A stretch of DNA of 64,000 nucleotides from an uncultured Candidatus Saccharibacteria bacterium. GTDB lineage: Bacteria > Patescibacteriota > Saccharimonadia > Saccharimonadales > Saccharimonadaceae. Numbering within the stretch: position 1 is the first letter of the stretch; every line of letters starts with the position of its first letter. The translations under genes and the position numbers were made by a program. Shown piece by piece: positions 877 to 62,739 of the stretch. The stretch is taken from the NCBI GenBank assembly GCA_963553085.1, contig CAUVLR010000001.1:5342-69341 (forward strand). Direction: 5' to 3'. The notes under the pieces were generated by a model. That model saw only the letters and a list, made by a program, of their open reading frames with translations, was not told where the DNA came from and ran no database searches.

Positions 877-939
877 GTCTGTAATTTCCCTATACGCATA
901 GCTTGAGTGGGTACGAGTAGTACAGGTGGTCTCCTCAGG
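877..939 (-). repeat. Arm repeat: inverted solo copy of the elA 3' arm and terminus (left inverted repeat of composite locus 1)
   Basis: TCTGTAATTTCCC...GTACGAGTAGTACAGGTGGTCTCCTCAGGC is the near-exact reverse complement of 1243-1306. Confidence 0.85.
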
Positions 940-962
940 CTCTGCTACTTAGCAACCCCCAC

Positions 963-1063
963 TCTTCGTCTCGTCATCATTTCCTTCAGACCCGCCCGGC
1001 TGGCTCGTGCACTGCTGAGCTTCAAGCGTGCACAGTCTTCAGGAAATGACTGACGCAGACGAA
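963..1063 (+). repeat. hpB copy 1: 101-nt imperfect hairpin repeat
   Basis: CTTCGTCT..CATTTCCTTCAGAC pairs with GTCTTCAGGAAATG..AGACGAAG. Apical stem is GTGCAC/GTGCAC. Four more copies are in the window. Confidence 0.85.
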
Positions 1064-1100
1064 GGACGAAAGACACCCTTTGAGTTGTAAGGAAAGCTAT

Positions 1101-1306
1101 GTCTGTAATTTCCCCGGTCTCATTCCATAGTTGGACCTCAATCTAAGTAAACATTCCCGGGTACGAGCAGTACAGTGTGGTTGACGAAGGCTGTTGATAT
1201 ATCAGTAAGCTAGCAATTGCCAGTGGTACTCGCTACGTCGCCAGGCCTGAGGAGACCACCTGTACTGCTCGTGTGTCAAAGAGTTATGTGTATGGGGAAA
1301 TTACAG
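1101..1306 (+). repeat. elA copy 1 (short form, 206 nt): structured repeat closed by its termini
   Basis: TCTGTAATTTCCCC (5' end) pairs with GGGGAAATTACAGA (3' end). Inner arms GGTACGAGCAGTACAGTGTGGT and ACCACCTGTACTGCTCGT also pair. Confidence 0.85.
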
Positions 1307-4106: not shown

Positions 4107-7100
4107 ATGAAAGTTGTTGACCGGGTCAGTAAGATCAGACCTATTAAGTCGTGGTGTGGTCTGAAGCAAGCCCTCACCGCCACCACGCTAGCTCTCTTCA
4201 GCGTGCTATTGATGACCAGCCCGGTGATAGCTGTCTGCCAGAGAGACATCACCGGCAAACAGACCGGCCAGCCGGTCAGCGAGGATCACACCAGCAATGT
4301 CATCCAGCTGATTCATCTGGCTCACACCGCCAATACATTTAACACCGAGTATGGTGCGTATAGCAATAAAGATAGCAACTATGCCGGTACGACCATCGCC
4401 CTACTCAGGAACGGCAAGGTGTACAGCTGGGGCAACAATATCTATGGTGGCGTTGGCAACAATACCACTTGTACTATGACCAGCAACGTTTACCTCAAAC
4501 GGCCACCCTGCTACTATAACCAGCCACAAGATATCACTAAATATTTCGGCAACGACAAGGTGGCCAAGCTAGCTAACCGTAGCCAACGAGCTATCGCTAT
4601 CACCGAGTCGGGCAAGATATACCGCTGGGGACAACCTCCGCTAGACGAAGATGGAAAGGATATAATCAGACACCCCACTCAATATCAGGAACTAGCTCCT
4701 TACCATATCATCGGCTATAGCGGGACCGACCGCGGAGGTCCGGGGACTGTCGGTGGAGGTTGGTATGCTTACAGCGACGACACTATCTTTGACATAAGCG
4801 ACGACAAAGTAAGCATGATCAAGCCTCAGCTGAACGGAGCCACTATCAGATCAGTCGACTGTGTTTGGCGCACAAAGGAGTTCCAGCCTGACAATCCGGA
4901 TAAAGACGAGGGTGGTCTCTATGTACTCACTTCCACCAATAAGCTCCTCAGAGTTCAGGACGACGGCAAGACGACCGAAATAACCAACTCTGAAATAGCC
5001 AAGCGAGGCGGATTTAAGCAGATCTATCATTACTACGCCATCGACCATCAAGGTGGACTCTGGCTCTATGGTCATCCCAAATACGAAGGTGAGTCTACTC
5101 TAGTCGACATGCATCCTAGGCTGGTCGGCTCGATCGGCACCAATCTACCGGCGTTGCAAGAGTTCGTTAACTCTAACGGCGTAGAAATCTCTTCATCTAC
5201 TAAGCGAGACCCTATTGTCCGAGGTGTCGACAATCATTTCTACTATCTGGCCACCTACTACACCAATGAATCAAGACTAATGCTCAATCCTATCGATATC
5301 ACCGCCAGTACTAAACACCAGAATATCAGACTGTTTCATGGTGATGCAGGTGCCGTGAATGACAAGACGCCACTAGAGATAGCGACAGACTACAGCAATC
5401 AATTATTCTATGATTACTCCTTCATCCCCGAGGGCAGCGATACTGACCTAGTCTGTACTACCGCTGAAGGTTTGTCGATGCACCATGAGATTATAGGCGA
5501 AGATCCTTCCCTCAATCTCACCCCGACCCTCCCCTTACGCCAGCAACCGAAACAAGATAAAACCGGCGACACTGCTCCGACCTGTGTCAAGATACCTTCT
5601 GATAAACCGAAGCCGGATCCGATCAAACCGCCCACGCCTAATACACCTAATCAGCCCAAGCTGCCCGGCGTACCTAATACCGGACTAAGAGACGACAAGG
5701 TCGTTCAGCTGGTTCACTCACCCGCCACATTTGACTACTATGGCGAGCAGAAGCATGGTATGGGCACCTGGCGAGACCAAGACTACGCCGGCACGACTGT
5801 CGTGCTGACCGAAAGCGGCAAGCTGTATGCCTGGGGTAATAACATTGCGGGCGGAGTCGGTAACGGCACCGGCTACGGTGCGACGTCTAACAAGAAGCCG
5901 CCCGTCTACTACAGTGACCCCCAGGATATCACCAGATTCTTTAACGGCGACAAGATCGTCAAGCTGGTAAATCACCGCCATGCGTTTGCAGCCATCACCA
6001 GCTCCGGCAAAGTATACTACTGGGGACACGGACTGTTCGATAAAGACAGGAAACCCATCATACATCCGGTCACACTGAGCGAGCTGTCACCCTATCACAT
6101 CATTGGCTTCGGTAGAGACATAGATCCCGGCAACTATAACGGCTCCTCTTCCTATGTAGCTAGTCATCCTGACAACATGAGTGATTGTCTTGCCTTTAGC
6201 AAGGATACCATCTTTGTTCTAGATTGTTACAGGTATACAAGCCGGCTCCAGTACCACGACGAGGCAAAGAACCGGATCAAGCCACAGCTCAGTAGTGGCG
6301 CCACTATCCTCGACGTCGATCACATCACGCGTCGCACCCCCACAGCAGAAGAGCCCGAGCCGGATAAGGGAGGCTACTACGCCCTAACCTCCGATCACAA
6401 GTTGCTGAGGGTGCTGGAAGACGGTACCACCAGCGAGATAACCAACTCGGAGATCAAAAAGCGAGGCGGGTTCAAACAATTATCTTATGCCGGTCATTAT
6501 GCCATCGACAGACAGGGTGGTCTATGGTACTACGGCTACCGAGAGGGCAATGACTCTATCCACGATATGGCAAAGATATCAACTAGTGGTAAATTACCTC
6601 ACCTAGATAGCTTCTTTAATGTTCTCGGACCAGTCGCCCGTGGTGCCGATGGAGCGATCTACGCCATAACTGACACGCACATCAATAGCCCCAATCAGTA
6701 CTTCGTGGGCAGGAGCGTTGACCCGATAGACGTCGGCACCCTGCTCGGCGGTAAGCAGAAGATTAAGCTCCTCAGTGGCGAGGTAGAGACAAGGTACCGG
6801 GGAGATTCAGGCTATACTAATGACTACTACCCTCCCAAAGATCTTCCCTTCTATGACTTCGCCTTCGTGCCACAGAGTCAGCCTGATACTGTCTGTGTCG
6901 GGCTGAGTGGCGCCGCCTACAACCGAATCCATGGCGAGAATAGAGGTCCTCTATTTGAGACCATCCAGCCGGTCGATGGCACACTACCATCCACCTGCGT
7001 CAAACTGCCACCGTGGAATGACGGCAAGTCAAACCCGTCACCCGTACCCGGCGCACCCACTACGTCCAAAGCGCCCGGTGTACCTAATACCGGCAGCCAG

Positions 7101-8657
7101 CCTGACCCGATCATTCAGCTAGTCCATATCCCGGCTGTTATTAACGGGGCAATTAATGGAAACTCTGAAAATCTCACAGCTAAGGATACCGACTACGCCG
7201 GCACGGTCATGGTGCTGACTCAGAGTGGCAGAGTATTTGCTTGGGGCAATAACTACGCCGGCAGTGTCGGCGTTGGTACTGCCGGGTTTAAAGTTCCCTA
7301 CCCCGAATCCGTTAAGAGCCGGCGAGAGGGTCATCCCGAATATTACGATACACCTCAGGAGATCACTAAATACTTTGGCGACGATAAAGTGGTCAGGATC
7401 GGACGCTACGGTCGTACTAGCGTCGCCGTTACCCAGTCGGGCAAGCTCTATCAGTGGGGCTGGAGCCACAACCAGCCCTGGGATTGGTACGACCGACTCG
7501 AGAATATAACTTGGACGGAGCCCACTCCCGACCCCACCCCATCCCTCGATAAGGTCACCGGTATAGGTGGGAGTTATGGTGATATCTATTCCGGTGGAGG
7601 TTGGCTGGCTCATGGCGACGACACCATCTTCACTAAGACTAGCACTAGCCAGCTGAAGGACTTTGGAGACAAGCTAAAGCTATCGCTTAATGGCGCCACC
7701 ATTAGGTCAGTCGACTACGTTGATTTCAACGGCAGGATAGCACAGAACCCTCAACTAGGTATCGACCAGTCCTTTAAGACGGGAGTCTATATCCTCACCT
7801 CGACCAATAAATTGCTCCGAGTTAAAAATGATGGTACTACCACCGAAGTAACCAACGACAAGATTAAGAGTCGAGGTGGCATCAGACAGATCGCTAATCA
7901 GTATGCCATCGACAACCAGGGTGGACTGTGGTACTACGGCGTCGGCATGAGTAAAGACCAAATTTACGATATGTCGCTCAAGACGCTAGGTGGCATCACA
8001 CCTCTACCTCGGCTAAGAGACATCGTCGGTGTCGATCTAATTGAGGATTTACACATGCTTAAAGATGGCTGGCAAAGACCCTGGTCATCTAGTGTACTAG
8101 TCCGCAGCATCGACGGACATATCTACGATGTATCACCGGTTCAAACCAAGTTTTCCACCGAAGACGGTGGCTACCCCGAGCGACGCTTCGCCCTAACCGA
8201 TGTGACCAAACTACTCGGTCACGATAAGATCAAACTCTTCGACGGCAAGATCCACAGCACAGGAGACACTAAGCCGGTAGATAATGAGGCGCCCGGACTA
8301 TACGGCTACTCTTACGTCCCGGAGTCGAAGCTAGATACCGTCTGCACTGTTATCAGTGGTGTAGCTAGCGCCAACGCCAGTCAAGCTCAATCACTCTATG
8401 GTCATGGTCATCCGCTGAATGTTAGCGTCACCACTACCAAGCTAGTTAACGACGCCTTCGCTCCGACCTGCGTCAAGTTGCCGCCCTTACTCACACCGGA
8501 CCCCAAACCCGGCCCAACACCAAATCCGAAGCCGACGAAACCGACTAGCGGTATCAAGGCGCCCTTTGACCGGCCCAAAGCACCCGGTGTACCTAATACC
8601 GGTAGTGAGCCACTCTTTATGAGCGTACACCGAGCACCAATCTTCGCTCGGCGCTGA
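4107..8657 (+). CDS. Secreted or surface protein made of three tandem RCC1-like propeller modules, each ending in P-N-T-G
   Basis: 1516 aa with an N-terminal signal or anchor segment. RCC1-type blades are present (GKVYSWGNNIYGGVGN, GKLYAWGNNIAGGVGN, GRVFAWGNNYAGSVG). Modules span about aa 60-526, 527-996 and 997-1499. GGAGG Shine-Dalgarno before the ATG. Confidence 0.75.
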   Translation: MKVVDRVSKIRPIKSWCGLKQALTATTLALFSVLLMTSPVIAVCQRDITGKQTGQPVSEDHTSNVIQLIHLAHTANTFNTEYGAYSNKDSNYAGTTIALLRNGKVYSWGNNIYGGVGNNTTCTMTSNVYLKRPPCYYNQPQDITKYFGNDKVAKLANRSQRAIAITESGKIYRWGQPPLDEDGKDIIRHPTQYQELAPYHIIGYSGTDRGGPGTVGGGWYAYSDDTIFDISDDKVSMIKPQLNGATIRSVDCVWRTKEFQPDNPDKDEGGLYVLTSTNKLLRVQDDGKTTEITNSEIAKRGGFKQIYHYYAIDHQGGLWLYGHPKYEGESTLVDMHPRLVGSIGTNLPALQEFVNSNGVEISSSTKRDPIVRGVDNHFYYLATYYTNESRLMLNPIDITASTKHQNIRLFHGDAGAVNDKTPLEIATDYSNQLFYDYSFIPEGSDTDLVCTTAEGLSMHHEIIGEDPSLNLTPTLPLRQQPKQDKTGDTAPTCVKIPSDKPKPDPIKPPTPNTPNQPKLPGVPNTGLRDDKVVQLVHSPATFDYYGEQKHGMGTWRDQDYAGTTVVLTESGKLYAWGNNIAGGVGNGTGYGATSNKKPPVYYSDPQDITRFFNGDKIVKLVNHRHAFAAITSSGKVYYWGHGLFDKDRKPIIHPVTLSELSPYHIIGFGRDIDPGNYNGSSSYVASHPDNMSDCLAFSKDTIFVLDCYRYTSRLQYHDEAKNRIKPQLSSGATILDVDHITRRTPTAEEPEPDKGGYYALTSDHKLLRVLEDGTTSEITNSEIKKRGGFKQLSYAGHYAIDRQGGLWYYGYREGNDSIHDMAKISTSGKLPHLDSFFNVLGPVARGADGAIYAITDTHINSPNQYFVGRSVDPIDVGTLLGGKQKIKLLSGEVETRYRGDSGYTNDYYPPKDLPFYDFAFVPQSQPDTVCVGLSGAAYNRIHGENRGPLFETIQPVDGTLPSTCVKLPPWNDGKSNPSPVPGAPTTSKAPGVPNTGSQPDPIIQLVHIPAVINGAINGNSENLTAKDTDYAGTVMVLTQSGRVFAWGNNYAGSVGVGTAGFKVPYPESVKSRREGHPEYYDTPQEITKYFGDDKVVRIGRYGRTSVAVTQSGKLYQWGWSHNQPWDWYDRLENITWTEPTPDPTPSLDKVTGIGGSYGDIYSGGGWLAHGDDTIFTKTSTSQLKDFGDKLKLSLNGATIRSVDYVDFNGRIAQNPQLGIDQSFKTGVYILTSTNKLLRVKNDGTTTEVTNDKIKSRGGIRQIANQYAIDNQGGLWYYGVGMSKDQIYDMSLKTLGGITPLPRLRDIVGVDLIEDLHMLKDGWQRPWSSSVLVRSIDGHIYDVSPVQTKFSTEDGGYPERRFALTDVTKLLGHDKIKLFDGKIHSTGDTKPVDNEAPGLYGYSYVPESKLDTVCTVISGVASANASQAQSLYGHGHPLNVSVTTTKLVNDAFAPTCVKLPPLLTPDPKPGPTPNPKPTKPTSGIKAPFDRPKAPGVPNTGSEPLFMSVHRAPIFARR

Positions 8658-10900: not shown

Positions 10901-10950
10901 CCCCGAACTTTTGCATATAGCTGGCTGATTTGCTAGTATGAATGCCATAT

Positions 10951-11506: not shown

Positions 11507-11532
11507 TTGTTCGACACCTTTAGCCCCTCATT

Positions 11533-11633
11533 CTTCGTCTACATCATCATTTCCTTCAGACCCGCCTGGCTGGCTCGTGCACTGCTGAGCTTCAAGCGTG
11601 CACAGTCTTCAGGAAATGACGATGCAGACGAAG
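11533..11633 (+). repeat. hpB copy 2
   Basis: 101 nt, near-identical to 963-1063. Confidence 0.85.
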
Positions 11634-11670
11634 GACAAGAGACACCATTTGAGGCGGAAGGAAGGTTATG

Positions 11671-11975
11671 TCTGTAATTTCCCTAGTCTCATTTCTTAAT
11701 CTAATCTCAATTAAAGCAGGCATTCCTAGGTACGAGTAGTACAGTGTGGTTGACGAAGGCTGTTGATACATCAGTAAGCTAGCAATTGCCAGTGGTGCTA
11801 GCTACGTCGCCAGCCTGTCCAGCTGATGCTAGTTAGGCTAACCTGACATACACAGAGCGTTATTACACCCTAAGTCCTCTTTGCGGTTGTTAGTATTAAG
11901 TATCGTGCTGGAGCCTGAGGAGACCACCTGTACTGCTCGTACACTATAGGGCTATACGTGGAGGGGAAATTACAG
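11671..11975 (+). repeat. elA copy 2 (long form) with nested modI at 11814-11913
   Basis: Same termini and arms as copy 1. An extra ~100-nt stem-loop (CCTGTCCAGC...GCTGGAG) lies between CGTCGCCAG and CCTGAGGAG. Confidence 0.85.
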
Positions 11976-17849: not shown

Positions 17850-17912
17850 CTGTAATTTCCCCTTCACGCATAGCTCGAGTTGGTCCGAATAGCACAGGTG
17901 GTCTCCTCAGGC
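17850..17912 (-). repeat. Arm repeat, inverted solo copy (locus 3)
   Basis: CTGTAATTTCCCC...CACAGGTGGTCTCCTCAGGC, homologous to 877-939. Confidence 0.8.
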
Positions 17913-17935
17913 CTACTGCTTAGTCAGCCCTCATT

Positions 17936-18036
17936 CTTCATCTACATCATCATTTCCTTCAGACCCGCCTGGCTGGCTCGTGTGCTGCTGAGCTTCAAGC
18001 GCACACAGTCTTCAGGAAATGATCAGTAGAGTGAAG
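17936..18036 (+). repeat. hpB copy 3 (variant carrying compensatory substitutions)
   Basis: Apical stem is GTGTGC/GCACAC instead of GTGCAC/GTGCAC. Confidence 0.85.
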
Positions 18037-18082
18037 GACAAAAGACACCCTCTTATGTGCTAAGGGCTATCTAATACTTTAT

Positions 18083-18205
18083 ATGGGGGGCTGATAGATT
18101 CATCACATCAACCTCAGACCTGGCGCTCATAATGTACCACTGGCGATTGATTACTTGTAGGACATTGATTAGTCTTCGGTTGTCTGTGATGAATCCGCCC
18201 CCCAT
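18083..18205. repeat. palC: 123-nt palindromic insert, the only copy in the window
   Basis: ATGGGGGGC..GATTCATCACA pairs with TGTGATGAATC..GCCCCCCAT. Lies between hpB copy 3 and an elA fragment. Confidence 0.7.
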
Positions 18206-18219
18206 GAAAGCCTTCCTGC

Positions 18220-18275
18220 GGGTAAAGAGCAGTACTTGATGGTTAACGAAGACTGTTGATACGACAGTAAGCTAG
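18220..18275 (+). repeat. Degenerate fragment of the elA 5' arm
   Basis: GGTAAAGAGCAGTACTTGATGGTTAACGAAGACTGTTGATACGACAGTAAGCTAG aligns with the elA core GGTACGAGCAGTACAGTGTGGTTGACGAAGGCTGTTGATA..CAGTAAGCTAG. Confidence 0.65.
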
Positions 18276-18284
18276 ATGATACAC

Positions 18285-18488
18285 ACGTAATTTCCTCGGT
18301 CTCATTGCTTAGCCAACCTCAGTCTAAGGTAGACACTCCTGGTACGAGTAGTACAGTGTGGTTGACGAAGGCTGTTGATATAGCAGTAAGCTATCCAGTG
18401 CACGTGGTAGTTTATACGGTGCCAAGCCTGAGGAGACCACCTGTACTACTCGTACGAACCCGGATTATATGTGGAGGGAAATTACAGA
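18285..18488 (+). repeat. elA copy 3 (short form)
   Basis: Termini GTAATTTCCTC / GAGGGAAATTACAGA and conserved arms. Confidence 0.85.
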
Positions 18489-18576: not shown

Positions 18577-19530
18577 ATGACCCATGACAAAGACGCTAAA
18601 AATGATGAATTTTACCTCGCCGACCTGATCATGGACTTCGTCGAGTACATCGAAATAGAGCGAGGCCGATCCATCCGCACCGCCGAGAACTACAACCTGT
18701 ACATGGACCGACTGGTCGAATTCGCCGGCAACATCCCCGTCAGCCAAATCACCGACGAGCTGGTCAGAAAATATCGTCTGTGGCTGAACCGCTTCGTCGA
18801 CGAACAAGGGCGTGAGCTCTCGCTCATCACCCAGAGTTATCATCTGATCGCTCTGCGGAGCTTTCTCAAATATTGCTCGCAGCGAGACATCCCCACCCTG
18901 GATGCCAGCCGGGTCAACCTACCCCGCACTCAGAAGAAACAGGTCTCCTTCCTACTGGCGGAAGAGGTGGCTCGGCTATTCGACGCCATTCCGCTTGACC
19001 AACCTAGCGGACTGCGAGACCGAGCCATCATCGAGCTGCTCTTCTCGGGTGGCATGCGAGTCAGCGAGCTATGTAGCATCAATTGCAACCAGCTCAACCT
19101 GGATCGGCGAGAATTCACCGTCAGGGGCAAGGGTGGTAAAGACCGCCCCATCTTCATCAGTCAATCAGCCGCTGATACGATCGAGCGATATCTGCAGACT
19201 AGGTCGGACGGGCTCAAGCCGCTCTTTCTCAATAACTCTCGCAATATCGTCGAGAGTGATGACGTCGACCTCAGCGAAGCTCGCCGTCTGACTCCCCGCT
19301 CGATCCAGCGAATCGTCAGTAAATATGCTCAAGCAGCTGGCATCACCAAGCATGTCACTCCCCACACTCTGCGCCACTCTTTCGCTACCGACCTGCTGAT
19401 GAATGGCGCCGACCTGCGCTCGGTCCAGTCGATGCTGGGGCACAGCAATATCGCCACCACCCAGATCTACACTCACGTGACCGACCCTCATCTCAAGGAA
19501 GTACACGACAAATTTCAGAGCAACCTGTAA
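18577..19530 (+). CDS. xerC: Tyrosine site-specific recombinase, XerC/XerD family
   Basis: 317 aa. SAM-like N-terminal domain, [38 protein letters not shown] (R-H-R-Y catalytic pattern). Confidence 0.9.
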
Positions 19531-26927: not shown

Positions 26928-27029
26928 AAAGCCCAGCAGGATACAACGACTATTCTTATCTAAGGTGGGTCAATAAGTCATTACGCCCTCTCAGTAAACA
27001 GATTTAGATTGGTATCAGCTGGACAGGCC
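26928..27029 (-). repeat. modI solo copy D1
   Basis: The reverse complement starts GGCCTGTCCAGCTGATAC and ends GTATCCTGCTGGGCTTT, the same ends as the stem-loop nested in elA copies 2, 5a and 5b. Confidence 0.75.
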
Positions 27030-34935: not shown

Positions 34936-35089
34936 ATGAAGCAATACATCCCCCGCATCATTGACCAAGAATGTCGTCGAGGGTAAGGGGCGACGTATTC
35001 TCTCTCGCAGTGTCATCGTCGGTTCGGGCTATGCCTATACCCGACCGGATGGGATAAATGTGATCCCACTGAGTGCACTGGGAGTATAA
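34936..35089 (+). pseudogene. Internally deleted, frameshifted remnant of an AAA/DUF4143-type ATPase gene
   Basis: MKQYIPRIIDQECRRG then a stop. In another frame, GRRILSRSVIVGSGYAYTRPDGINVIPLSALGV then a stop. From memory, these resemble the extreme N- and C-termini of that ATPase family. Confidence 0.45.
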
Positions 35090-35203
35090 GTCGGGCGGAT
35101 TCATCGCCGCCCCCCATACACCTGCATTGACCCAGACTAAGTTTTCCACTAGAATAGCCTTGTCAAATAAGGTGGTCTTAGGATCGCTAGAAACAGGAGT
35201 TAT

Positions 35204-35554: not shown

Positions 35555-35760
35555 AGAGGCAAAGTCTGTAATTTCCCTCTATACATAGTCCTATGGCATA
35601 CGAGTAGTACAGGTGGTCTCCTCAGGCTTGGCACCGTATAAACTACCACGTGCACTGGATAGCTTACTGATATATCAACAGCCTTCGTCAACCACACTGT
35701 ACTACTCGTACCCAGGAATGTTTACTTAGATTGAGGTCCAACTATGGAATGAGACCGGGG
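35555..35760 (-). repeat. elA copy 4 (short form, opposite strand)
   Basis: The reverse complement is nearly identical to copy 1 over the termini, the arms and the variable 5' region. Confidence 0.85.
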
Positions 35761-35797
35761 AAATTACAGACATAGCTTTCCTTACAACTCAAAGGGT

Positions 35798-35898
35798 GTC
35801 TTTCGTCCTTCGTCTGCGTCAGTCATTTCCTGAAGACTGTGCACGCTTGAAGCTCAGCAGTGCACGAGCCAGCCAGGCGGGTCTGAAGGAAATGATGA
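35798..35898 (-). repeat. hpB copy 4 (opposite strand)
   Basis: The reverse complement is near-identical to 963-1063. A degenerate arm remnant follows at about 35923-35950. Confidence 0.85.
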
Positions 35899-35992
35899 CG
35901 AGACGAAGAGTGAGAGATTGGCTAGGTAGTAGAGTCGAGGAGACCATACAGCCTGCTCCGGGCTACAAAGCTTTTAGGGGCTAGCCTGTCCA

Positions 35993-36928
35993 CTATATAT
36001 TACTCAGCGTGGAGCGGATATGTAGCCAAGCTTCATCTGGTGCAGATAGCTTGACCTTACCATCCAGCTGGGCGAGCTTCTCGACAACCTCGCCTAGTCG
36101 CCGGGATAGCTGACGATCGCCTAGGCGCTCAGCCAGCTGGCGAGTCTGATTCAGTTGATAGGGGCTGAGCTTGACCTTAGCACCGGTCAAGACGCCAGCC
36201 AAGGCTAGAGCTTGTGAGGCTAGTAGCCCCAGGAAGCGATTACTATCCTCCCCCGCCGTGATCAGCCGGTCAAGTAGCTGCGCCACCTTAGCTTGATTGC
36301 CAGCTAGTCCTGCCTCTAAGATGGCAAAGGCATTAGTCTGGGGGCTGGGCTGAACATACTGCTCGACTAGCCGAACCGTTAGCTCGCTGCCTAGTAGCGC
36401 CAGCTTGTCCAGCTCCAGCTTGAGACGAGCTTGCTGATTCTCCTCGCCCACCGTTAGCTTGAGCAGTTTATCGGTAACGCCTCGCTCGACGCTTAGCCGG
36501 TGGTACTTGAGCTCTGCCTCCAGCCACGGTCGGAGTTGATAACTGCTCTTAGCCAGGTCAAACTTCTCTACCGTGGCGCCGAGGCGCCTCAGCTCTTTCA
36601 TGGTGCGAGTGATAGTGAGGTTGCGCACTTTGCTCAGAGCTTTGATATCAGTCAAGATGACGGTGGTCTGCTCGGGAATATGAGCCAGGTTCGTCTCCAG
36701 CATGGTCCAGTTGCCCGCCTGGGCGGTAACGGCTGAGACGATGACTAGCCGATAAGTGTCGAAGAGGCTAAGGGCAGTTAGCTGAGAGGCCAGGTCAGCC
36801 GGGGCTACTTCGGTGCCGTCAATGGTGGTGATAGCACCGGCGCTGTGCTCCTGAGCAAATGCTTGGCGTAGTTCTTTGACTCGCCGGTTGATCAGGTAGT
36901 CGTTGTCACCGTGGAGGAAATAGATCAT
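35993..36928 (-). CDS. holA: DNA polymerase III delta subunit
   Basis: 311 aa. MIYFLHGDNDYL N-terminus and overall HolA-like layout. Confidence 0.75.
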   Translation of the reverse strand: MIYFLHGDNDYLINRRVKELRQAFAQEHSAGAITTIDGTEVAPADLASQLTALSLFDTYRLVIVSAVTAQAGNWTMLETNLAHIPEQTTVILTDIKALSKVRNLTITRTMKELRRLGATVEKFDLAKSSYQLRPWLEAELKYHRLSVERGVTDKLLKLTVGEENQQARLKLELDKLALLGSELTVRLVEQYVQPSPQTNAFAILEAGLAGNQAKVAQLLDRLITAGEDSNRFLGLLASQALALAGVLTGAKVKLSPYQLNQTRQLAERLGDRQLSRRLGEVVEKLAQLDGKVKLSAPDEAWLHIRSTLSNI

Positions 36929-36943: not shown

Positions 36944-36995
36944 TCAGAGCCAGTCGTATGGTCTCCTCAGTTCTACTGCCTAGTCAGCCCTCATT

Positions 36996-37096
36996 CTTCA
37001 TCTGCATCATCATTTCCTTCAGACCCGCCTGGCTGGCTCGTGCACTGCTGAGCTTCAAGCGTGCACAGTCTTCAGGAAATGACGATGCAGACGAAG
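36996..37096 (+). repeat. hpB copy 5
   Basis: 101 nt, preceded by an arm remnant (GTATGGTCTCCTCAG, about 36965-36981). Confidence 0.85.
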
Positions 37097-37135
37097 GACA
37101 ACATGTACCCTTAGCGTGATTAAAGGTACTATGTG

Positions 37136-37421
37136 TCTGTAATTTCCCCGGTCTCATTTCTTAGTCTAGCTTCAGTCAGAGATGAACACTCCTAGTACGA
37201 GTAGTACAGTGTGGTTGACGAAGGCTGTTGATACAGCAGTAAGCTATCCAGTGCACGTGGTAGTTTATACGGTGCCAACCTGTCCAGCACCCAGCAGATG
37301 CGTAAGTCTATTCAGGTATAATTTAAGCTCATATTACACCATAGTTCTTCTTACGCAACGCCAGCTCTATGTATCCTGCTGGGATGCTGGAGCCTGAGGA
37401 GACCACCTGTACTACTCGTAC
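37136..37421 (+). repeat. elA copy 5a (long form, nested modI at 37279-37392, 3' terminus missing)
   Basis: Conserved 5' terminus and both arms are present. The GGGGAAATTACAG end is absent. Confidence 0.8.
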
Positions 37422-37488
37422 AGGGAGCTATATATATGAAAGGAGACCACACGCCCTACTCTGAGCTACAAGACTTAATATTTATACG

Positions 37489-37806
37489 TATGTAATTTCC
37501 CTGGCCTCATTCCATGGTCTGCCGTCAATCAAGCAAAGCATTCCTAGGTACGAGTAGTACAGTGTGGTTGACGAAGGATGTTGATACAACAGCAAGGTTA
37601 CAATTGCCAGTGGTAACTTACACGTCGCCAGCCTGTCCAGCACCCAGCAGATGCGTAAGTCTATTCGTATACAATTTAAGCCTATATATGCCTCGGCTCT
37701 TCTTGTACAATACCAACTTTATGCATCCTGCTGGGATGCTGGAGCCTGAGGAGACCACCTGTACTGCTCGTGTGTCAAAGAGTTATGTGTATGGGGAAAT
37801 TACAGA
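37489..37806 (+). repeat. elA copy 5b (long form, nested modI at 37632-37744)
   Basis: Complete termini and arms, in tandem with copy 5a. Confidence 0.85.
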
Positions 37807-37845
37807 CCATGCTCTGAGCCACAAGCTTTCGTAAGTAATTATACC

Positions 37846-37904
37846 TAAGGAGACCACCTGCACTACTCGTACACTATAGAGTTATGCATGGAGGGAAATT
37901 ACGG
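37846..37904 (+). repeat. Solo elA 3' arm and terminus
   Basis: AAGGAGACCACCTGCACTACTCGTACACTATAGAGTTATGCATGGAGGGAAATTACGGA. Confidence 0.75.
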
Positions 37905-37924
37905 ATTCCGTTTATGCTCTGATG

Positions 37925-59297: not shown

Positions 59298-60848
59298 ATG
59301 TATCGAAATAGTCAGCGAAAAGTCGGCGGTATAGCCCTATTTAAGGTACTATTCGCCGTTAGTCTACCGGTTCTCAGCTTGGTCTCACCGATGACTGCCA
59401 TCGCTCAGCCAGCTCCCACCATCATTCAGTCCGACCCGGTAGTTCAACTGGTCCATGTTCCGGCACTTAGTGCCAGCTTTCGCAAGACTTATCGACCGTA
59501 TAGCGAGCTGGCAAAGACTGATCGGACAGAGCAGCTGTGGCGAGATAGTGACTACGCCGGAGCAACGGTCGCCCTGACTAAAAGCGGCAAAGTGTATGCT
59601 TGGGGCAACAATATCCGTGGCCATGTGGGTAACGGCACAACCTGCACTTTATCCAGCCCCGGTCAATATGATAAGAAGCCGCCCTGTTACTACGACCAAC
59701 CACAAAATATCACGAAGTACTTCGGTAATGATAAAGTCACTAAGCTTGCCAGTAACCATGTTAGTATAGTTGTCGCCTTAACTACTTCAGGTAAGCTGTA
59801 CTACTGGGGTCGGGATTGGGATCCGGTCGCCAGCGAAAACGTAGTGATCAATCAACCGACGACACTAGACACACTATCGCCTTACCGTGTTACCGGCTTC
59901 GGAGGGCATGGTGCCGGATTTAGCAGAGATTTCGAATATTTCCCCCATGACGCCTGGTACGCCTATAATGATGACACCTTGTTTTTAGTTGGTGGCACTG
60001 GCACTTTTCTCTCCTTTAGCGATGATGCTAAGCATGTCATCAAACCTAAGCTGGATGGTGCCACCATCAAGCAAGTCGACTATGTCGATACCGGATATAC
60101 TCCCGGTCGAAATGGTACTTATATCCTGACCTCCAAAAACAAGCTCTTTCACCTCAAATTCGATGGAAGCACGACTGAGGTTACTAACGACAAGATCAAG
60201 AGTAGAGGTGGCATCAAGCAAATCTTTAACCACTATGCCATCGATCACCAGGGTGGACTGTGGTTCTATGGCTATGGCAAGAATATTGACCCTGTGATAC
60301 AAGATATGTCACAAAAAACCATCAAGCCACTGCCAATCGCCCGTGATCTACTGACTTATAATTATGATACTGTCATACTCGGTGCCGATAACCATATCTA
60401 CAATATTAATGTATATCGCTTCGACGAGAACAAACATTTTCTCAATACCATGATGGTCAAGTCGATGGATATCACCACCTTAATTAGTAAAGAAAGGGTG
60501 AAGTTACTTAATGGTGGTATGAGTCAGCGATTTCCAGAAGATGTTCATATACTAGAGAATTACTACGACTACTCTTTTACGCCCGAAAGCCAGCCGGATA
60601 CAGTTTGTACCGGGCTTAGTGGTGTAGCTGCTAATGATTTTAATCAGGAATCCGAGGAAAGAAACCCGCCCAAGACTGAGACTACCCGACCGGTCAATGG
60701 CACCCTCCCTACTACCTGCGTCAAGATGCCACCGGTCACAGTCCAGGTTCCTGCACCTGCGCCGACACCGACTCAGCCAGCACCCGGTGCTCCCGACTTC
60801 ACAGCCAAACGCAATAATCTCCGAGCACCCAATACCGGCAGCCAATAG
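59298..60848 (+). CDS. Secreted single-module RCC1-like propeller protein ending in APNTGSQ (paralog of the modules in 4107-8657)
   Basis: 516 aa with a signal peptide (...PMTAIAQP). GKVYAWGNNIRGHVGNGT and YAIDHQGGLWFYG. Long stretches resemble each module of the 1516-aa protein. Confidence 0.75.
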   Translation: MYRNSQRKVGGIALFKVLFAVSLPVLSLVSPMTAIAQPAPTIIQSDPVVQLVHVPALSASFRKTYRPYSELAKTDRTEQLWRDSDYAGATVALTKSGKVYAWGNNIRGHVGNGTTCTLSSPGQYDKKPPCYYDQPQNITKYFGNDKVTKLASNHVSIVVALTTSGKLYYWGRDWDPVASENVVINQPTTLDTLSPYRVTGFGGHGAGFSRDFEYFPHDAWYAYNDDTLFLVGGTGTFLSFSDDAKHVIKPKLDGATIKQVDYVDTGYTPGRNGTYILTSKNKLFHLKFDGSTTEVTNDKIKSRGGIKQIFNHYAIDHQGGLWFYGYGKNIDPVIQDMSQKTIKPLPIARDLLTYNYDTVILGADNHIYNINVYRFDENKHFLNTMMVKSMDITTLISKERVKLLNGGMSQRFPEDVHILENYYDYSFTPESQPDTVCTGLSGVAANDFNQESEERNPPKTETTRPVNGTLPTTCVKMPPVTVQVPAPAPTPTQPAPGAPDFTAKRNNLRAPNTGSQ

Positions 60849-62643: not shown

Positions 62644-62739
62644 TCTACTATAAAGCTACTATAAAATTTTTTAGGACTAAAACAGACTAGCTCACATCTG
62701 TAAAATCAGTCTACTATAAAGCTACTATAAAGTTTTTAT
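62644..62739 (+). repeat. Two ~29-nt direct repeats 66 bp apart, each an internal tandem of CTACTATAAA
   Basis: TCTACTATAAAGCTACTATAAAATTTTTT (62644) and TCTACTATAAAGCTACTATAAAGTTTTTA (62710). Confidence 0.6.

What the first reader, a model, noticed from the sequence alone, without database searches (positions are those of the whole stretch)
1159..1270. C-G / U.G / U-A series in the long elA helix favours an RNA made from the hpB-to-elA strand
One position of the 15-bp inner helix of elA varies together with its partner.

- Copy 1: C1167-G1266.
- Copies 3, 4 and 5a: U-A (18349/18448, 35694/35595 on the opposite strand, 37202/37414).
- Copies 2 and 5b: U.G (11737/11935, 37555/37766).

The U.G intermediates are tolerated only if the strand containing hpB followed by elA is the folded strand. 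On the complementary strand they would be C.A mismatches.

Two other helices behave similarly. In the small hairpin CTGTTG-ATA-NNNCAG, the partner of the fourth U varies among A, G and U. The terminal helix shows CCCC/GGGG in copy 1 versus CCTC/GAGGG in copy 3.
Basis: partly seen in the sequence, partly recalled or inferred. Interest (0 to 1): 0.65.

Follow-up and report, generated by a model that had tools for sequence, protein, structure and literature searches.

The report
Modular hairpin repeat family in Saccharibacteria
The covarying base pair is real, but it lies in one hairpin module of an undescribed, multi-copy, insertion-polymorphic and invertible repeat family in a TM7 (Saccharibacteria) chromosome, and only that module's main stem, not the neighbouring hairpins, favours folding of the proposed strand.

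Summary
In 88 distinct relatives this pair reads UA 52, UG 15, CG 14, CA 6.

The elA stem is strongly supported. Three stem classes with different, fully compensated sequences share the same loops. 96% of cells pair against 87.8% in shuffles. 228 cells carry changes on both sides against 61 in shuffles.

G.U departures outnumber A.C departures about 3:1 in the elA main stem, in cells and in inferred events. Unpaired positions show no strand bias. So elA does prefer the hpB-to-elA strand.

The preference does not extend further:
- hpB is balanced or folds better on the other strand.
- The terminal helix is dominated by C.A and shows no covariation.
- The "fourth U" of the small hairpin is unconstrained.

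Other evidence points to a DNA-level repeat. The composite carries no promoter or terminator. It sits in either orientation relative to genes. It is present or absent at orthologous sites, and it is inverted in place between long inverted end modules.

It is best read as a new modular hairpin repeat, similar in kind to BOX, BIME or MITE elements. Whether it folds as RNA or as single-stranded DNA is undecided. RNA-seq data were not available.

The parts
879..942 (+). Copy 1: inverted end module (T-fwd). It is the reverse complement of the 3' end module of elA.
   Evidence: (D7, I13-I17).
957..1078 (+). Copy 1: hpB hairpin. The stem spans 963-1065. The apical three-way part is nearly invariant in the family.
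1103..1115 (+). Copy 1: internal END motif CTGTAATTTCCCC. It is the 5' side of the proposed terminal helix.
1160..1275 (+). Copy 1: elA hairpin, short form. The arms are 1160-1181 and 1255-1275. The covarying pair is C1168-G1267.
1245..1306 (+). Copy 1: 3' end module (T-rev), ending in GGGGAAATTACAG.
   Evidence: (D5).
11526..11646 (+). Copy 2: hpB.
11729..11943 (+). Copy 2: elA, long form. The pair is U11737.G11935.
11818..11912 (+). Copy 2: optional extra hairpin of about 95 nt, inserted at a fixed point of elA. It is absent from the orthologous copy in L226.
11913..11975 (+). Copy 2: T-rev end module.
   Evidence: D5.
17850..17912 (+). Copy 3: T-fwd inverted end module.
17928..18050 (+). 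Copy 3: hpB, with the compensated variant GTGTGC/GCACAC in the apical stem.
18225..18275 (+). Copy 3: 5' half of a fourth-class elA unit.
18341..18456 (+). Copy 3: elA, short form. The pair is U18349-A18448.
18426..18487 (+). Copy 3: T-rev end module.
   Evidence: D5.
35794..35916 (-). Copy 4: hpB.
35597..35712 (-). Copy 4: elA, short form. The pair is U35704-A35605. The whole copy is absent from the same site in L151.
35566..35628 (-). Copy 4: T-rev end module.
36988..37109 (+). Copy 5: hpB.
37194..37422 (+). Copy 5a: elA, long form. The pair is U37202-A37414.
37547..37774 (+). Copy 5b: elA, long form. The pair is U37555.G37766.
37744..37805 (+). Copy 5b: T-rev end module.
   Evidence: D5.
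37843..37905 (+). Solo T-rev end module after copy 5b.
   Evidence: (D5).

Best explanation
elA is one hairpin module of an undescribed family of modular interspersed repeats in Nanoperiomorbus-like Saccharibacteria (TM7).

A unit reads, always in this order and orientation: hpB, then one to three elA hairpins, then a 62- to 85-nt end module. It is often bracketed upstream by an inverted copy of that end module.

Shown:
- The family is multi-copy and covers about 4.5% of this window.
- It sits in intergenic DNA in either orientation.
- It is present or absent at orthologous sites.
- It is inverted in place between its inverted end modules.
- Copies exchange segments with one another.
- Base pairing of the hairpin stems is under selection, while loop sequences stay nearly invariant.

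Inferred:
- The units spread and rearrange at the DNA level as non-autonomous elements. This would happen through recombination between end modules and through an unidentified enzyme acting in trans.
- The stems are kept because the element must fold as a single strand.
- For elA the folded strand is the hpB-to-elA strand, either as read-through RNA or as single-stranded DNA.
- It is most likely not a self-standing RNA gene.

Copy set and fixed order:
- The window holds 6 elA, 5 hpB and 3 extra end modules.
- The order hpB then elA then end module is fixed in over 100 units.

Stem constraint:
- Three compensated stem classes share the same loops.
- 18 of 33 pairs show double-sided changes.
- 96% of cells pair against 87.8% in shuffles. 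228 cells have double changes against 61. No shuffle of 500 reaches the observed values. Slid controls pair at 30-44%.
- The hpB basal stem occurs in at least three compensated variants.
- Loop conservation is 93-96% against 80-85% in the stems.

DNA-level dynamics:
- The window site 10901-10909 is empty. It is filled in L162 and L226 in the minus orientation, and in L210 and L140 in the plus orientation at a different junction.
- Copy 4 is absent in L151.
- The interior at the holA-pilD site is inverted between L114 and L053, while the outer end modules and flanks stay direct.
- 8 of 48 sites occur in both orientations.
- Hairpin arms are chimeric, and a paralogue (93% identity) resembles window copy 1 more than its orthologue in L032 does.
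- Many family hits lie at contig ends.
- No promoter or terminator was found in the unit.

Strand preference of elA:
Against: - No transposase was found, either in the window or by motif search of 1.75 Mb of related loci.
- No target-site duplication is visible.
- The conservation pattern is the opposite of what MITEs and REPs show (from memory) and is typical of functional structured RNAs. Here the loops are invariant and the stems covary.
- An optional hairpin always sits at the same position of elA, as a variable stem of an RNA family would.
- The elA G.U excess would fit an RNA.
- All sampled genomes are close relatives, and copies exchange sequence. Counts of cells and events are therefore not independent.
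Confidence: 0.55

Rival explanations
1. The hpB-elA unit is a structured non-coding RNA, either a multi-copy RNA gene or a cis-acting RNA element. It is transcribed from the hpB-to-elA strand, and selection acts on the RNA fold.
For: - Compensated stem classes share invariant loops.
- G.U exceeds A.C about 3:1 in the elA stem, while unpaired positions are strand-symmetric.
- The forward strand folds 10 kcal/mol better.
- The two internal loops can form tandem G.A pairs (sequence reading).
- An optional stem sits at a fixed position.
- The order and polarity of modules are fixed.
Against: - hpB, the terminal helix and pair 70/81 do not share the strand bias.
- No promoter or terminator was found.
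- Sense and antisense placement are equally common, 18 against 15 sites, and 8 sites occur in both orientations.
- The unit is inverted in place.
- The unit is present or absent at orthologous sites.
- No Rfam family matches.
- Dozens of copies per small genome would be unusual for an RNA gene.
Confidence: 0.22
2. The unit is a mobile element that folds as single-stranded DNA. One DNA strand forms the hairpins, which are recognised by an HUH (Y1) transposase or by a tyrosine recombinase, as with IS200/IS605 ends, REP-RAYT or integron attC sites. G.T wobble is tolerated on that strand only.
For: - Structure is conserved while stem sequence is not.
- elA shows a strand-specific G.T excess.
- No target duplication is seen.
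- The unit has a fixed polarity.
- Independent insertions occur a few bases apart at one intergenic spot.
- A Xer-like tyrosine recombinase gene lies 90 nt from copy 3.
Against: - No Y1 or RAYT motif was found in 1.75 Mb of loci. This was a regular-expression search only.
- The Xer-like gene looks like the ordinary chromosomal recombinase and lies next to only one copy.
- hpB lacks the same strand bias.
- The long inverted end modules are not a feature of IS200/IS605 (from memory).
Confidence: 0.15
3. The unit is an invertible switch. The segment between the inverted end modules flips within populations and changes expression of a neighbouring gene.
For: - An in-place inversion is seen between relatives.
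- 8 of 48 sites occur in both orientations.
- Divergent, promoter-bearing intergenic regions are favoured, 18 sites against 5 convergent ones.
Against: - No promoter was found inside the unit on either strand.
- The inversions seen are between genomes, not within one sample.
- 62-nt inverted repeats can recombine without a dedicated invertase (inference).
Confidence: 0.06

Closest known systems
Pneumococcal BOX elements (boxA, boxB repeated, boxC). Comparison from memory.
   Same: - Modular order with a variable number of middle modules.
- Non-coding and intergenic, found in either orientation.
- Predicted stable hairpins.
- No transposase of their own.
- Many copies in a small genome.
   Different: - No sequence relation was tested or seen.
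- The units here are larger and are bracketed by 62- to 85-nt inverted end modules that mediate inversion.
- Loops here are more conserved than stems.
E. coli REP/BIME mosaics and REPIN-RAYT systems. Comparison from memory.
   Same: - Mosaic arrangements of palindromic units at fixed intergenic sites.
- Hairpins with compensatory change.
- Folding as a single strand matters for mobilisation.
   Different: - REP units are 20-40 nt and their stem sequence is what is conserved.
- A RAYT gene accompanies them. None was found here.
MITEs such as Neisseria Correia elements. Comparison from memory.
   Same: - Small, non-coding and multi-copy.
- Terminal inverted repeats: CTGTAATTTCCCC/GGGGAAATTACAG plus the long end modules.
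- Insertion polymorphism.
   Different: - No target-site duplication and no parent insertion sequence were found.
- The interior is more conserved than the inverted repeats.
- Internal polarity is fixed and hairpins occur in tandem.
Integron attC sites and IS200/IS605 end hairpins. Comparison from memory.
   Same: - The fold is conserved while the stem sequence varies.
- One strand is preferred.
- The central part varies in length.
   Different: - There are no cassette arrays, no R-box consensus and no integron integrase or TnpA nearby.
- The elements lie between housekeeping genes.

Membership tests
MITE | Small, non-coding, many copies | tested here: met
   Units are 400-960 bp with no conserved ORF. 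The window holds 5 units in 64 kb, and related contigs hold hundreds of copies.
MITE | Terminal inverted repeats | tested here: met
   A 13-nt END pair and 62- to 85-nt inverted end modules are present.
MITE | Target-site duplication | tested here: not met
   Filled and empty junctions at 10901-10909 and at the S20-holA site show no consistent duplication.
MITE | Parent insertion sequence with the same ends, or a cognate transposase | tested here: inconclusive
   None was found in the window. A search of 1.75 Mb of loci for IS200, RAYT, IS3 and IS110 motifs found nothing. Whole genomes were not searched.
MITE | Insertion polymorphism between relatives | tested here: met
REP/BIME/REPIN | Short (20-40 nt) palindromic units with conserved stem sequence | tested here: not met
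   Hairpins are 100-230 nt. Stems vary (three classes) while loops are conserved.
REP/BIME/REPIN | Associated RAYT (Y1 transposase) gene | tested here: inconclusive
   No RAYT motif was found in the loci. This was a regular-expression search of partial genomes.
Structured non-coding RNA gene | Covariation that supports a fold | tested here: met
Structured non-coding RNA gene | Wobble bias on the same strand in all helices | tested here: not met
   The elA stem favours the forward strand. hpB, the terminal helix and pair 70/81 do not.
Structured non-coding RNA gene | Own promoter and terminator, or a fixed orientation relative to a host transcript | tested here: not met
   No signals were found. 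Sense placement is seen at 18 sites and antisense at 15.
Structured non-coding RNA gene | Transcript detected | not testable with these tools
Any Rfam family | Match at or near the gathering score | tested here: not met
   Only tRNAs pass in the window. The best hit on the element is a microRNA model at 16.5 bits against a cut-off of 96.
Inverton | Segment inverted between inverted repeats | tested here: met
   L114 against L053. 8 sites occur in both orientations.
Inverton | Promoter inside the segment and an invertase nearby | tested here: not met
   No promoter was found. A Xer-like recombinase lies next to only one copy.

The most novel reading that the evidence does not exclude
The hpB-elA unit is a functional structured nucleic acid kept by selection in an ultra-small episymbiont genome. 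Its loops stay invariant, its stems covary across three classes, and it carries an optional stem. It would be a new class of multi-copy structured RNA, or of folded single-stranded DNA recognition module. It can flip in place, so one site can present either strand.
Probability: 0.25. Interest if true: 0.75.

Novelty: new variant of a known kind. Interest (0 to 1): 0.5.

Why it matters
Saccharibacteria have genomes under 1 Mb. No paper found in four full-text searches describes interspersed repeats in them.

A repeat family that fills several percent of such a genome has three practical consequences:
- It breaks metagenome assemblies.
- It inverts segments next to essential genes such as holA and pilD.
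- Its loops are under tighter constraint than its stems.

It is therefore either a very successful selfish element with an unknown mobilising enzyme, or a domesticated structured element. Either answer bears on how reduced episymbiont genomes rearrange.

For the narrow claim, the result is a caution. Strand inference from a few wobble pairs held for one helix and failed for its neighbours.

Tried and rejected
- **Rfam.** Scans at gathering and permissive thresholds gave nothing.
- **Other collections.** Viral contigs, plasmids and phages gave no match.
- **Literature.** Nothing on such repeats was found.
- **Transposase hunt.** I clustered ORFs by variability of genomic context and ran motif searches. 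Only an AAA_14/DUF4143 ATPase stood out, and no transposase motif appeared.
- **A false insertion.** A 1094-bp apparent insertion at 34962-34970 proved to be a deletion inside that ATPase gene in the window.
- **First biased count for hpB.** An event count based on per-sequence folds was inflated by chimeric arms and by doubtful pairs in the flanks.
- **Second biased count for hpB.** A count on pairs predicted from the forward strand was biased towards G.U. Both counts were replaced by a strand-neutral alignment of one arm against the reverse complement of the other.
- **First genome scan.** It was anchored on the 3' arm and so biased that arm. It was replaced by a set anchored on the hpB loop.
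- **Not built.** I did not build a covariance model for both orientations. A model built from one strand's loops would favour that strand by construction.

Full report
**Setting**

The window is a chromosome segment of a Candidatus Saccharibacteria (TM7) genome close to Candidatus Nanoperiomorbus periodonticus.
- It carries housekeeping genes: ThrRS, sigma-70, holA, prepilin peptidase, ribosomal proteins and five tRNAs.
- Every contig that shares the repeat is labelled Saccharibacteria.

**Check of the observation**

The arms GGTACGAGYAGTACAG-T-GTGGT and ACCAC-CTGTACTRCTCGT occur in six copies. The bases at the named pair are as stated. Two coordinates are wrong: copy 1 is 1168/1267 and copy 4 is 35704/35605. 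The arm 16-mer has 14 matches against 0.54 expected, and the hairpin folds with z = -5.5. Six copies cannot establish covariation by themselves.

**Anatomy**

The hairpin belongs to a larger unit. A unit reads:
1. hpB, a hairpin of about 105 nt with an asymmetric three-way tip.
2. One to three elA hairpins, in tandem and in the same orientation.
3. An end module of 62-85 nt that closes with GGGAAATTACAG. The 3' arm of the last elA is part of this module.

An inverted copy of the end module often stands upstream of hpB. The window holds 5 hpB, 6 elA, one half elA, two inverted end modules and one solo end module. Together these cover about 2.9 kb, or 4.5% of the window.

**Related copies**

Two scans supplied relatives.
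- The first was anchored on the 3' arm. It constrains that arm, so it was not used for arm statistics.
- The second was anchored on the invariant hpB loop. It gave 120 loci in which the elA arms are free to vary.

**The stem is real**

elA occurs in three stem classes whose sequences differ at most positions yet remain complementary. All three carry the same loops.

| Measure (89 short-form copies) | Observed | Control |
|---|---|---|
| Predicted pairs with double-sided changes | 18 of 33 | n/a |
| Cells forming a standard pair | 96% | 87.8% in shuffles |
| Cells changed on both sides | 228 | 61 in shuffles |
| Shuffles reaching the observed values | 0 of 500 | n/a |
| Cells paired with partners slid 1-3 columns | n/a | 30-44% |

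Further points:
- Pair 31/89 switches G-C to A-U 14 times with no mismatch.
- The hpB basal stem also occurs in at least three compensated variants.
- Loops are better conserved than stems: 93-96% against 80-85% column identity.

**The named pair**

In 88 distinct copies the pair is UA 52, UG 15, CG 14, CA 6. The association is significant over all classes (p = 2e-4) but weak within class I (p = 0.07). C.A forms exist, so the wobble intermediate is preferred but not exclusive.

**Strand test**

| Helix | Result |
|---|---|
| elA outer helix | G.U 66 against A.C 19 cells |
| elA, arm haplotype network | 34 WC-to-GU against 13 WC-to-AC steps |
| elA, unpaired positions | Symmetric substitutions, 18 against 13 |
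| elA, folding energy | Forward strand better by 10.4 kcal/mol in 86 of 89 copies; the consensus fold agrees |
| hpB main stem, strand-neutral | G.U 71 against A.C 179; 69 against 56 after removing two fixed A.C oppositions |
| hpB apical stem | G.U 17 against A.C 20 |
| hpB, folding energy | Complement folds better in 132 of 148 copies and in all four subtypes |
| Inner pair 70/81 | A.C 23 against G.U 8 |
| Partner of the 'fourth U' | U 34, G 35, A 20 |

The strand preference therefore belongs to the elA main stem only.

**DNA-level behaviour**

- The site between ThrRS and tRNA-Val (10901-10909) is empty in the window. L162 and L226 carry a unit of about 530 bp there in one orientation. L210 and L140 carry one in the other orientation, at a junction 9 nt away.
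- Copy 4 is missing from L151.
- The copy 1 site in L220 holds only an end stub and an inverted hpB.
- At the holA-pilD site, L114 and L053 share flanks and outer end modules in direct register, but the 559 nt between them are inverted.
- Of 48 distinct sites, 18 are sense and 15 antisense to co-directional neighbours, and 8 occur in both orientations.
- Some hairpins are chimeras of two variants. At the copy 1 site, L032 carries a different elA class, while window copy 4 is 93% identical to copy 1. Copies therefore exchange sequence.
- No sigma-70-type promoter or intrinsic terminator lies in the unit.
- No target duplication is visible, and no transposase motif was found.

**The optional hairpin**

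About a quarter of elA copies carry an extra hairpin of 95 or 113 nt. It always lies between GCCAR and CCTGAGGAG, and it comes in two subfamilies. It can differ between orthologous copies.

**Interpretation**

The family behaves like a non-autonomous, recombining hairpin repeat of the BOX, BIME or MITE kind. Its conservation pattern is unusual for that kind, because the loops are constrained and the stems covary. That pattern, together with the elA wobble bias, keeps two other readings open: a functional RNA, or a fold in single-stranded DNA. The tools could not test transcription, so that question stays open.

Noticed in passing
window 34937-35089: Remnant of an AAA_14/DUF4143 ATPase gene. 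It has lost 1094 bp between short direct repeats (GACCAAGA). The gene is intact in L153 3370-4626. This family is the most context-variable ORF cluster in the related loci, and it often starts about 130 nt after an end module.
   Followed up: partly
L114 1105-1700 against L053 3505-4098: An in-place inversion of a 559-nt repeat interior between holA and the prepilin peptidase gene. The flanks and the outer end modules are unchanged.
   Followed up: yes
window 35566-35960 and 36947-37905: holA (35993-36928, minus strand) is flanked by two repeat units in inverted orientation. In L053 the two units are in direct orientation.
   Followed up: partly
L053 2477-2554; also L055, L059, L102: A second copy of the last 26 codons of holA lies just downstream of the gene, next to the repeat unit. 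The window has no such copy.
   Followed up: no
window 18083-18207 and 35092-35118: Copy 3 holds another long hairpin, TATATGGGGGGCTGATAGATTCATCAC...GTGATGAATCCGCCCCCCAT. Its GAATCCGCCCCCCAT motif recurs, slightly altered, near the ATPase remnant.
   Followed up: no
window 18577-19530: A Xer-like tyrosine recombinase gene starts 90 nt after copy 3. The same arrangement is seen in L042 and L010.
   Followed up: partly
L051 6700-6790 and L048: The 5' half of hpB alone lies upstream of a putative promoter and a gene that looks, from its N-terminal sequence, like a P-type ATPase. This is probably a truncated relic.
   Followed up: no
window 4107-8657 and 59298-60848: A 1516-aa RCC1-repeat protein with internal repeats of about 1.4 kb, and a 516-aa paralogue that shares the same repeat units.
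   Followed up: no
window 62644-62737: Two 28-nt direct repeats, TCTACTATAAAGCTACTATAAARTTTTT, lie 66 nt apart in an intergenic region.
   Followed up: no
window 26931-27027: About 95 nt are present here but absent from the orthologous position in L130 and L235.
   Followed up: no
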